Program-made: the position numbers and the translations under genes
Notes under the pieces: model-generated
The model's input: the letters and a program-made list of their open reading frames with translations, nothing else
Told to the model about the DNA's origin: nothing
Databases searched by the model: none
Part shown: one piece after another, positions 38,726 through 41,700 of the stretch
Numbering within the stretch: the first letter of the stretch is position 1
Layout: the number at the start of each line of letters is the position of its first letter
Source: Trichinella spiralis
Taxonomy: Eukaryota
Direction of reading: 5' to 3'
Assembly (NCBI RefSeq): GCF_000181795.1
Contig: NW_003526948.1
Coordinates: forward strand, 2,654,562-2,718,561
DNA length: 64,000 bases

Positions 38726-41700
38726 CTAAAGTAGCTCGTATTGCCTCAAGTGGATTCTTTGAATTATATCACGGCAATCGTTGAACACTCTTCGAATATT
38801 TTCCGTATCCACTGCACATGTGAAATGAGGATAACAATGGTGCCGGCTGTCACCGGTAGCCGTCGAAATAAGCTGCAACAAAAAAATATCCGATGTCGCG
38901 GTAAATGAAATTATTCTACACCAAATATGGCAAAAAAGCACAGGAAGGAACTATAAACATGCATAATTTTACAACAGCATGACAATAATTAGAACATTGA
39001 CAACAACAACAACAACAACACTAATACTAATACTAGCAAGCAAAGTGACTAACGAGCAGAATTATCATACGGTTAAAAGAAGAACAAGAATACAATAAAA
39101 AAAGGAAATCAAAAATACAAACAAACAAACAAAAAGTGCCATTTCAAAATATCTGCAGCAATGTGCATAGAAATAGCAAGCGGAATTAATTTTATTTATA
39201 ATCCAAAAATTTTTCGAACAAAATGGCAAAACAGAAAAATGCTCAAATAGCCGACAACAACAACAACAACGAAACAAACAAATCATCGAGTACAGTCACC
39301 GTGCGTGCACTTTCAACTGATATATATATATATATTCAACGAATAATAGAAACAAAAATACAATTGAAAATAAACAACAACAACAAAACAATAATAAATA
39401 TTTTAAAATTTAAAAATGCAAGCTTCTGGTAAAAGATTCGCAAAAGAAAATATCAAGCTGTTGCCTGTGTACAAAAACTGCGTGTGTATAATAAACAAAT
39501 AAATAAATATATAGATAGATAGATAGATAGATGGTGTGGAATTGCCGTTATTATATATATAAGTAAAGCGCCAATTGTGATTTGATTTGCTAATTTCGCA
39601 ATGGAATTGGAAGAGCGCAAGCGTGATAAAAAAAAAACCAAACCAAACCAAAACAAAACAAAATTAACAAAATAAAGATCCGCTTCGGTGAGAAACTTTT
39701 GCATATGCAAATTGATCGCTGCGAACAACAACCGACAAGAAATGCAACGGATGAGATTAGAAATAGAGTCGTTGGAATGTTTTTTTTTTGGTCGATGCCA
39801 AGCAAAGGGTGGTCACTGAATCAGCTAGCCAGTTGGGTTTGGATTGAAATTTCGTGATCAAAAAACAAACAAACAAACAAAATCCAATCCATACCTCGTT
39901 GAAAAGAGAAAATAAATCCAAAGCGGTTTTGGTCTCATAATCGAGGCAGAGATTGAGTTGCAAATATTTTTTTGTTTTTTGTTTTGTTTTGTGTTCTGTG
40001 TTAAAAGATGAATGATGCTTTGTCGAGGAAAAGCTGACGACGTATAATATTTCGACAGTTGTCGAAAACGCGCCTCACGTTAGCGGTATCTAACGCGCAC
40101 GTAAAGTGCGGATAAATGTACCGATAAGTTCGCGATACTGATGAAGAATTGTGGCTAGAATGAAACGAAATGACAATTGGTCGCGCTCACATCGCAACTA
40201 ATTAATTCAAATTTTCAAAATAATTAATTATTAAAAAATATTTTGTTTTTCCTACAATTTCTGCTTTCTCTCTCAGTCTCAACCTCCCCTTCTCTCCTTC
40301 TCCCTCGCTCTCTCTCGGTCTCTCTCTGCTGTGTGTGTTGTTCACTTTTACCAAAAAAACGAAAACTAAAAAACAAACAAACAAACAAATAAACGAGAGG
40401 AAGCATAAAAAACAAAAACAAATAAAAATTAAAATAAAAAAATGAAACTTTTGCAGAACCTTCTCAAAGCGTGCAACGTCAACGTGCCACCGCGGCCAGT
40501 TTGCACCAGCGGCTTTGCCGACGCACTTTCCTCAGTCAACACGCACGGCAAAGGCACGCCCGCAGCCTGTTCACGCATGCTAGGTAGACACAGTTTCTAA
40601 AAAGACAGACACACACACAGTCCACAGAGCAGCAAAGGACAACGACAACAGACACATCCAACAACGGAGCATATATAACAGTATCGTATATTACACAACA
40701 CATTACAAAACAACAACATAATTACCAGAAATTCGCCCCGAATAAAATACTTTGCTCTCACTACGCAAGGATCTTCACCAGGTTCAAATTGAGCTAAAAA
40801 ATTTTAATAACACACTCCTTTACAAATCAGTAATCAATGAATAAAGAAATATTTTATGCAATACAATACAATACAATACAATACACACCATCTACGACAA
40901 ACTAACTAGACTAAACTAGACTAGACTAGTGTGCTTTTGCTTCCGATGAGCAATCGATTTCGTAAAAAAATATTTGCATAAAAATAAAAAGAAATAAAAG
41001 AACACCAACAAACATAGATAATTGGACAAAATTAAAATTAAAAAAAATTATTTTTTCTTGCAAAAAATATATACATTAAAAATCGACAACAACAACAACA
41101 ACAACAGCAACAGCAGCAACAACAGCATCTACTACTACTACTACTATTAATACTACAGTAAGAAAAAAATTAGTAATTAAGTTTTACATATGAACTGTAG
41201 AGTATTGTAGAGTTCGACTGTAACTTACCATCGGAAGGGATCAGATAGTTGGAATATTCAGGAAAGTAGTCTTCGAGCTTGTGCCTCCCCGATTTGATCT
41301 TCTCCGCAAGCAGATCTTGCTTATTGAGAAAAAGAATAACTGAGATTGTTTTGAGCCACCTGAAAAAGATGAACAAAAAAATTTAATTTTTTTAAAAATA
41401 AAAATAATTTGAAACTTCGCATCAGTCTATATATATATATATGTAAATAAGCGGACCTGTTGTTCCAAATTGATTTGAAAAGACTCAACGACTCTCGAAG
41501 CCTGTTGACAGTTTTATCTTCCAAAAGGACCATATTGTAAGACGACGATGCGCAGACGAATATGACGGCCGTGACGTCGTTGAAGCATTGTATCCATTTC
41601 CGACGTTCGTCTCTTTGACCACCGACATCGAACATACTGTATCAACGATATAAAAGTTAATAATAATAATAATAAATCAATTGATCAATCAATCAATCAA

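What the first reader, a model, noticed from the sequence alone, without database searches (positions are those of the whole stretch)
40001..40154. Hidden duplicate of the Galpha-s terminal exon: a second receptor-coupling C-terminus
Seen: the last Galpha-s intron (38873-40725, 1.85 kb, while most others are under 100 nt) holds on the sense strand [39 protein letters not shown]. This is paralogous to the canonical [37 protein letters not shown]. It has no internal stop or frameshift, has its own AG acceptor, and has a candidate AATAAA (minus strand, 39196-39191) before the canonical exon. The beta6/TCAxDT G5 box and the proximal alpha5 helix are kept despite many nucleotide changes, while the distal tail is replaced and two residues longer. 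Known: the last residues of alpha5 determine GPCR selectivity, and duplicated alternative 3' exons are described for Galpha-o (Go1/Go2); I do not know of this for Galpha-s. Inference: one locus makes a canonical Gs and a variant Gs that couples to different receptors or is receptor-uncoupled. It is too short to appear in the ORF track.
Basis: partly seen in the sequence, partly recalled or inferred. Interest (0 to 1): 0.9.

Follow-up and report, generated by a model that had tools for sequence, protein, structure and literature searches.

The report
Ancient second ending for nematode Gs
The last intron of this Trichinella G-protein (Gs alpha) gene hides an old, conserved two-piece alternative ending, also found in distant worms, that likely lets the gene make a second Gs protein predicted to respond to different receptors, although the final splice it needs was not seen in the RNA data examined.

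Summary
The duplicate exon (B, 40154-40001) is real and under long-term coding selection: against the canonical exon, synonymous sites are saturated while pN is 0.16. It needs an unnoticed bridging exon X (40596-40460), giving a predicted 425-aa Gs-alpha with a 46-residue longer alpha4-beta6 loop and a new tail. Automated models of T. nativa and T. pseudospiralis already hold this isoform. Homologous modules occur in Trichuris, Plectus, one genomic contig as a single exon, and seven unnamed proteins that keep L(-7)/L(-2) but replace Y-E by T-x. None was found in listed Caenorhabditis or filarial models. RNA shows the splice into X in 3 of 8 runs, but X-to-B in 0 of 8; contigs retain that weak intron. 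Duplicated terminal exons are already described for amphioxus Gs-alpha (PMC5896119). Verdict: likely an ancient, regulated alternative Gs ending with a changed receptor face; protein production in Trichinella is unproven. New variant of a known kind; interest 0.6.

The parts
40726..42765 (-). Ten shared coding exons of the Gs-alpha (gsa-1) gene: 42765-42628, 42557-42485, 42424-42370, 42301-42182, 42068-41971, 41898-41844, 41782-41709, 41636-41457, 41359-41229, 40793-40726; the last ends on helix alpha4 with a phase-0 donor
   Evidence: GT-AG model translating to an intact 377-aa Gs-alpha with exon A; four of the joints between these exons listed in RNA
40460..40596 (-). Bridging exon X (137 nt, 59% GC, phase 0 in, phase 2 out); encodes most of the alpha4-beta6 insertion
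   Evidence: Joint 40726 to 40596 in runs X1, X2, X10; 0 of 46 residues differ in 7 of 7 other Trichinella models compared; homologous segment in T. suis
40155..40459 (-). X-B intron (305 nt) with weak donor and weak acceptor; if retained, stop at 40431-40429
   Evidence: Donor score 1.6 against 4.4-9.3, acceptor -0.5; contigs read through the donor in 5 of 8 runs; spliced out in 16 of 36 database models
40001..40154 (-). Exon B: paralog of the terminal exon (linker, beta6, TCAxD box, alpha5, tail two residues longer than canonical)
   Evidence: pS 1.13, pN 0.16 against exon A over 25 codons; 3 of 50 residues differ in T. pseudospiralis; T. suis tail compatible at 19 of 26 positions
40073..40079 (-). 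Internal GT donor in B after the G5 box (last exonic base 40079); joins B to exon A in frame in gene models
   Evidence: 14 of 36 Trichinella models and T. suis P0040 use this position; position; not seen in RNA
39191..39196 (-). Candidate polyadenylation signal AATAAA for B-terminated transcripts
   Evidence: Only AATAAA between B and A; use not shown; the X1 contig runs past it into exon A
38726..38872 (-). Canonical terminal exon A
   Evidence: Joint 40726 to 38872 in 4 of 4 runs; matching loose ends in 4 of 4 more

Best explanation
The last intron of the Trichinella Gs-alpha gene contains a two-exon alternative 3' module (X + B), conserved in distant nematodes, that likely yields, in a minority of cells or stages, a 425-aa Gs-alpha predicted to keep the GTPase and cyclase-facing core but to couple to a different set of receptors. 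Shown: the alpha4 exon splices either to canonical exon A or to X (RNA); B is in frame only through X; B has been under coding selection. Inferred: the weak X-B intron is removed in a regulated way, and cleavage near 39196 ends the mRNA before A. Where it is not removed, X inclusion gives a truncated product without beta6/alpha5, so the same switch would also lower canonical Gs. Predicted: both changes fall on the receptor face, the alpha4-beta6 groove that takes receptor TM5 (PMC11187927) and the alpha5 tip. Related modules keep the hydrophobic -7 and -2 positions but swap Y-E for T-x, which fits changed selectivity better than loss of coupling. The unsplit single-exon form (L001) is likely ancestral, and the X-B intron was likely gained on the Trichinella/Trichuris line.
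For: Frame analysis. Saturated synonymous against low non-synonymous change, also after the internal donor. T. suis model P0040 has homologs of X and of B's first half. Out-of-frame model P0038 is compatible with the Trichinella tail at 19 of 26 positions (shuffles: mean 6.3, 0 of 100000 as high; canonical tail 13 of 24) and at 12 of 13 distal positions with one gap (1 of 20000). The Trichinella-Trichuris split is about 281 Myr (PMC4740406). Plectus models P0044 and P0158 carry an insert plus B-type box after the same alpha4 end. Contig L001 has Gs-alpha exons, a 126-nt intron, then the whole module as one exon. 7 of 149 new representatives have the B signature; all 7 have T at -4, L/I at -7 and L/I at -2. 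B and A types fall on either side of one branch (88/98 support, 38 columns). Splice into X in 3 of 8 runs. Full X+B models from two annotation sets.
Against: No X-to-B joint in 8 runs. Contigs run unspliced across the X donor (5 of 8) and the B acceptor (3 of 8), and in X1 on to exon A past the AATAAA. Both splice sites of that intron are weak. The database models are MAKER/BRAKER consensus predictions, not proof of the junction; only 2 of 36 end in the B tail. Identity within Trichinella is weak evidence, because even the out-of-frame reading of exon A is identical between T. spiralis and T. pseudospiralis models (P0034, P0036). The Trichinella tail departs from the family pattern (two residues longer, D at -7), so it may couple poorly. 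The T. suis tail is decoded indirectly and assumes contiguous DNA. L001 ends 130 nt after the stop, and no listed Plectus model shows a canonical ending, so an A-plus-B arrangement is shown only in Trichinella and Trichuris. No biochemical data.
Confidence: 0.6

Rival explanations
1. In present-day Trichinella the module works mainly as unproductive splicing: inclusion of X with the retained intron, or X spliced to A, truncates Gs-alpha before beta6/alpha5 and turns canonical Gs down, while the B protein is rare or vestigial.
For: All RNA contigs that include X read into the X-B intron; stop at 40431; 5 of 36 models are X+A frameshifts, one from the 2024 RNA-based annotation; third positions of exon A barely vary within the genus.
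Against: The B tail is kept in frame between Trichinella and Trichuris and is identical across the two Trichinella clades, which needs translation of B. Contigs of another intron (40794-41228) also appear, so unspliced precursor is a general background. Contigs drop rare junctions.
Confidence: 0.2
2. The X+B protein is made but does not couple to receptors; it would act as a receptor-independent Gs, or as a sink for G-beta-gamma.
For: In N-terminal register B keeps the R385 equivalent but changes L388 to F and loses E392. Human L388R and E392K impair receptor coupling or activation (PMC7617749 abstract; PMC9959179 passages). A 46-residue insert sits in the TM5 groove (PMC11187927).
Against: 7 of 7 unnamed B-type tails keep canonical length and hydrophobic -7 and -2 positions; a tail without a binding partner would not be expected to hold a fixed pattern.
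Confidence: 0.12
3. The main product is X + first half of B + A (internal donor 40079): a Gs-alpha with the canonical tail and a 71-residue insert holding a second beta6/TCAxD copy.
For: 14 of 36 Trichinella models and T. suis P0040; the GT-providing valine codon is compatible in T. suis.
Against: Junction not seen in the 4 runs laid on a stretch that includes exon A. Codons after the donor are still under coding selection. Gene finders tend to chain such duplicated exons (my knowledge, not tested).
Confidence: 0.06
4. B is a dead exon duplicate.
For: No spliced read into B; weak acceptor.
Against: pS 1.13 against pN 0.16; open frame and tail kept in Trichuris; homologous modules in other taxa.
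Confidence: 0.02

Closest known systems
Amphioxus preGNAS duplicated exons 12.2/13.2 (Lokits et al. 2018, PMC5896119, section 41 read whole)
   Same: Gs-alpha gene with a duplicated, alternatively spliced 3' end covering alpha4/beta6/alpha5 and a slightly longer C-terminus; the authors propose changed receptor range
   Different: There, two exons are copied with 80-81% amino-acid similarity and a one-residue extension. Here the alpha4 exon is shared, the loop gains about 40-90 residues, the Y-E-L-L tip is replaced, and in Trichinella the module is split by a weak intron. The paper's main text has no occurrence of 'nematod'.
Vertebrate GNAO exons 7.1-8.1 / 7.2-8.2 (Go1/Go2; PMC5896119 passages)
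   Same: One gene, two mutually exclusive receptor-coupling C-termini from a local duplication
   Different: Gi/o class; no long insertion is described; both forms are established proteins (recalled)
Automated models OUC40533.1 (T. nativa) and KRY65967.1 (T. pseudospiralis)
   Same: The same X+B C-terminus, at 100% and 94% identity to B
   Different: Uncurated, N-terminally or internally faulty, named simply G(s) alpha; no paper found that describes them
Human PHP-Ic Gs-alpha tail variants L388R, E392K (PMC7617749 abstract)
   Same: Show that changes at these alpha5 positions alter receptor interaction or activation
   Different: Disease point mutations, not an evolved isoform

Membership tests
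Gs-alpha (GNAS/gsa-1), X+B isoform | Intact G1-G4 boxes and switch regions | tested here: met
   Shared exons translate to intact P-loop, switch I arginine, DVGGQ and NKQD motifs
Gs-alpha (GNAS/gsa-1), X+B isoform | Gs-type beta6 / TCAxDT box / proximal alpha5 | tested here: met
   18 of 25 identical to exon A; PDB matches are almost all Gs/Golf chains (E about 1e-10), top hit an engineered miniGq
Gs-alpha (GNAS/gsa-1), X+B isoform | C-terminal Y-E-L-L receptor tip | tested here: not met
   Tail ends S-F-I-F and is two residues longer
Gs-alpha (GNAS/gsa-1), X+B isoform | Binds GTP, activates adenylyl cyclase, couples to GPCRs | not testable with these tools
   Needs biochemistry; both AlphaFold models were of low confidence
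Duplicated mutually exclusive 3' exons of G-alpha (GNAO, amphioxus preGNAS type) | Tandem paralogous terminal exon inside the same gene | tested here: met
Duplicated mutually exclusive 3' exons of G-alpha (GNAO, amphioxus preGNAS type) | Copy enters in the same phase as the canonical exon (drop-in replacement) | tested here: not met
   B alone needs phase 2; only X+B together enter in phase 0; the single-exon form in L001 does enter in phase 0
Duplicated mutually exclusive 3' exons of G-alpha (GNAO, amphioxus preGNAS type) | Coding selection on both copies | tested here: met
   pS 1.13, pN 0.16; T. suis tail
Duplicated mutually exclusive 3' exons of G-alpha (GNAO, amphioxus preGNAS type) | Both isoforms exist as fully spliced mRNA with their own 3' ends | tested here: inconclusive
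   First junction in 3 of 8 runs, second in 0 of 8; 7 runs are contigs and the raw-read run had 109 reads on the gene
Poison exon / unproductive splicing switch | Inclusion creates a premature stop | tested here: met
   True for retained X-B (stop 40431) and for X spliced to A
Poison exon / unproductive splicing switch | Transcript is degraded by NMD, or its level is regulated | not testable with these tools
   No NMD-perturbed or stage-resolved raw reads available

The most novel reading that the evidence does not exclude
Nematodes ancestrally make a second, undescribed class of Gs-alpha from the gsa-1 gene: the same cyclase-activating core fitted with an extended alpha4-beta6 loop and a T-x-L-L-type alpha5 tip. 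This lets receptors that cannot use canonical Gs raise cAMP. The module predates the split of Trichinella/Trichuris from Plectus, was lost in C. elegans and filariae (hence never studied), and in Trichinella is gated by a retained intron.
Probability: 0.4. Interest if true: 0.8.

Novelty: new variant of a known kind. Interest (0 to 1): 0.6.

Why it matters
The Gs alpha5 tip is nearly invariant across animals (most of the 116 hits end in Y-E-L-L). A natural, long-conserved Gs with a rebuilt receptor face would be a ready experiment on how coupling selectivity is encoded. It would mean that GPCR-to-cAMP wiring in Trichinella and whipworm cannot be read off C. elegans or mammalian G proteins, which matters for deorphanising parasite receptors. 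It also explains and corrects a set of chimeric public gene models.

Tried and rejected
Direct splice of the alpha4 exon to 40154: out of frame, rejected. Whole-genome search: none held. The look-up of sequencing runs: no holder on record as RNA (no evidence either way); 8 of the 24 listed runs were laid. Those calls dropped 6 and 1 joints at repeats. Four constitutive joints are missing's table and its piece table was cut, so absence there is weak. One search's piece table was complete and had no piece ending at 40154 or 40460. dN/dS between Trichinella species: no DNA of sister species over X or B was obtained (one search showed no differing letters there). AlphaFold of P0001 (lacks two exons; pLDDT 59, pTM 0.35, no beta-sheet) and of Plectus P0044 (pLDDT 60, pTM 0.47, insert and beta6 under 50): uninformative, no fold search run. 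Metagenome scan with B alone: none. With alignment A6: 80 loci, 1 B-type (L001), none with two boxes; 28 genomic loci with the non-nematode alpha4 motif showed no B box in the last intron. The ESM Atlas did not answer, so the taxa of the unnamed B-type proteins, P0219 and P0285 above all, stay unknown. The tree on 38 columns is weak, and one-clade testing neither shows nor rejects monophyly (p-AU 0.21). Earlier-findings look-ups were empty. Ten paper searches listed no paper on this isoform; subscription papers and most supplements are outside that library.

Full report
Observation. The minus strand carries a Gs-alpha gene of ten shared coding exons plus terminal exon A (38872-38726), translating to an intact 377-aa protein. 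The window's shared exons match T. spiralis model residues, so the species is probably T. spiralis; no genome was held. Inside the 1853-nt last intron, B (40154-40001) is an open paralog of A: 18 of 25 residues match over beta6-alpha5, against 8 for the next best place in the window. A direct splice frameshifts.

The missing piece. A GC-rich 137-nt exon X (40596-40460) enters in phase 0 and leaves in phase 2. X+B gives a 425-aa protein with 61 instead of 15 residues between the end of alpha4 and the HFT of the G5 box, and a tail two residues longer. T. nativa OUC40533.1 and T. pseudospiralis KRY65967.1 hold exactly this ending. Of 36 proteins P0001-P0036, 2 are X+B, 14 are X + half of B + A, 5 are X+A frameshifts, 3 use an upstream acceptor of A, 9 are canonical and 3 are other. 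The 2016 models are MAKER2 consensus of ab initio and RNA evidence (PMC4740406 supplement passages); the 2024 ones required RNA evidence and mention Braker3 (PMC11242134 passages). Neither proves a given junction.

Selection. Between B and A, 15 of 18 codons with the same residue differ synonymously; pS is 1.13 and pN 0.16 over 25 codons, and the pattern continues past the internal donor. A dead copy would not show this. Within Trichinella, X differs at 0 of 46 residues and B at 3 of 50 across the roughly 21-Myr clade split. This is weak evidence, because the out-of-frame reading of A is also unchanged between those clades.

Depth in time. Trichuris suis P0040 has homologs of X and of the first half of B, joined to A at the same point. 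A second T. suis model, P0038, reads this region out of frame. The residues possible in the shifted frame fit P0040 at 21 of 22 positions (calibration) and the Trichinella tail at 19 of 26 (0 of 100000 shuffles; canonical tail 13 of 24), with the distal part fitting at 12 of 13 after one gap. This is indirect but indicates that the tail has been kept for about 281 Myr. Plectus sambesii models carry an insert and a B-type box after the same alpha4 end. A profile of these run over 1.84 billion representatives returned 149 new proteins; 7 have the signature R-Y-[LIVF]-Y-[PTS]-H-F-T, six with a long insert (P0278 is a short fragment). All 7 have canonical tail length, T at -4, L/I at -7 and L/I at -2; for two of them I read a W after the tail as a stop, as in 62 of 63 canonical records with extra residues. 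One of them maps to contig L001: Gs-alpha exons with the nematode-type alpha4 motif, a 126-nt GT-AG intron, then the module as one phase-0 exon. Among the 116 new proteins only P0040 and P0044 had the signature, and among the 50 new members only P0158. The listed Caenorhabditis, filarial and Strongyloides models lack it, though annotation absence is not genomic absence and two clusters were listed only in part (15 of 21, 15 of 26). A 38-column tree separates 10 B-type from 20 A-type blocks (88/98), which fits one old origin but does not show it.

RNA. Eight runs were laid: seven contig sets (RNA by guess, but showing spliced joints) and one raw-read run with 109 reads on the gene. The canonical junction appears in all 8 (as joints or loose ends). 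The splice into X appears in X1, X2 and X10, at contig depths 62 against 309, 42 against 338 and 21 against 235, which is only a rough measure. No run shows X-to-B, X-to-A or the internal-donor junction (the last two testable only in the 4 runs). Contigs read through the X donor in 5 of 8 runs, and in X1 one contig runs from X to exon A unspliced. Both sites of the X-B intron score below all constitutive sites. Against over-reading this: contigs drop rare junctions, joints near repeats were dropped, and contigs of intron 40794-41228 show a background of unspliced RNA. This remains the main evidence against an abundant variant protein.

Mechanism. Shown: choice between A and X at the alpha4 donor; B in frame only via X; coding selection on B. 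Inferred: regulated removal of the X-B intron and use of the AATAAA at 39196. Predicted: G1-G5 and switch regions are unchanged, so nucleotide binding and cyclase activation should be kept. Receptor TM5 inserts into a groove that includes the alpha4-beta6 loop of Gs (PMC11187927, four passages), and alpha5 positions 385, 388 and 392 affect coupling (PMC7617749 abstract; PMC9959179 passages). Both altered parts therefore face the receptor. That hydrophobic -7 and -2 positions are general coupling anchors and -4/-3 set selectivity is recalled, not from a call. The family pattern favours changed selectivity, while the longer Trichinella tail leaves weak or absent coupling open. AlphaFold runs were uninformative.

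Prior knowledge. Duplicated alternative 3' exons are described for GNAO and for amphioxus Gs-alpha (PMC5896119: passages; section 41 whole; supplements not read). Ten literature searches (search listings only, apart from the papers named) listed nothing on a nematode form, including a search for the peptide motifs.

Verdict. A real, old, undescribed variant of a known design. Interest 0.6.

Noticed in passing
window 42850 / 42857 and 42905, 44819-44836 (minus strand): Two 5' donors 7 nt apart both splice to 42765, and RNA joins 42905 to a further upstream exon near 44819. Public models translate these 5' exons into varied, probably spurious, N-terminal extensions.
   Followed up: partly
window 38915: An upstream acceptor of exon A is in frame with X and is used in 3 T. 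pseudospiralis models, giving X plus a canonical tail.
   Followed up: partly
window 38872-38764: The out-of-frame reading of exon A (36 codons) is identical in T. spiralis and T. pseudospiralis models and differs once in T. zimbabwensis: unusually fixed third positions, possibly splicing-control sequence.
   Followed up: no
protein P0158 (Plectus sambesii): Holds a second N-terminal block with its own P-loop-like motif after the first exon, suggesting alternative 5' exons or a merged model.
   Followed up: no
proteins P0064 (Dermacentor) and P0089 (Anastrepha): Arthropod Gs-alpha models with a different segment after the same alpha4 exon; in the tick it is followed by what looks like a frameshifted last exon, much like X+A.
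   Followed up: no
protein P0016 (XP_003371647.1, T. spiralis RefSeq): The model runs into the intron at 41228-40794 and lacks alpha4 to alpha5 altogether; it is a truncated annotation.
   Followed up: no
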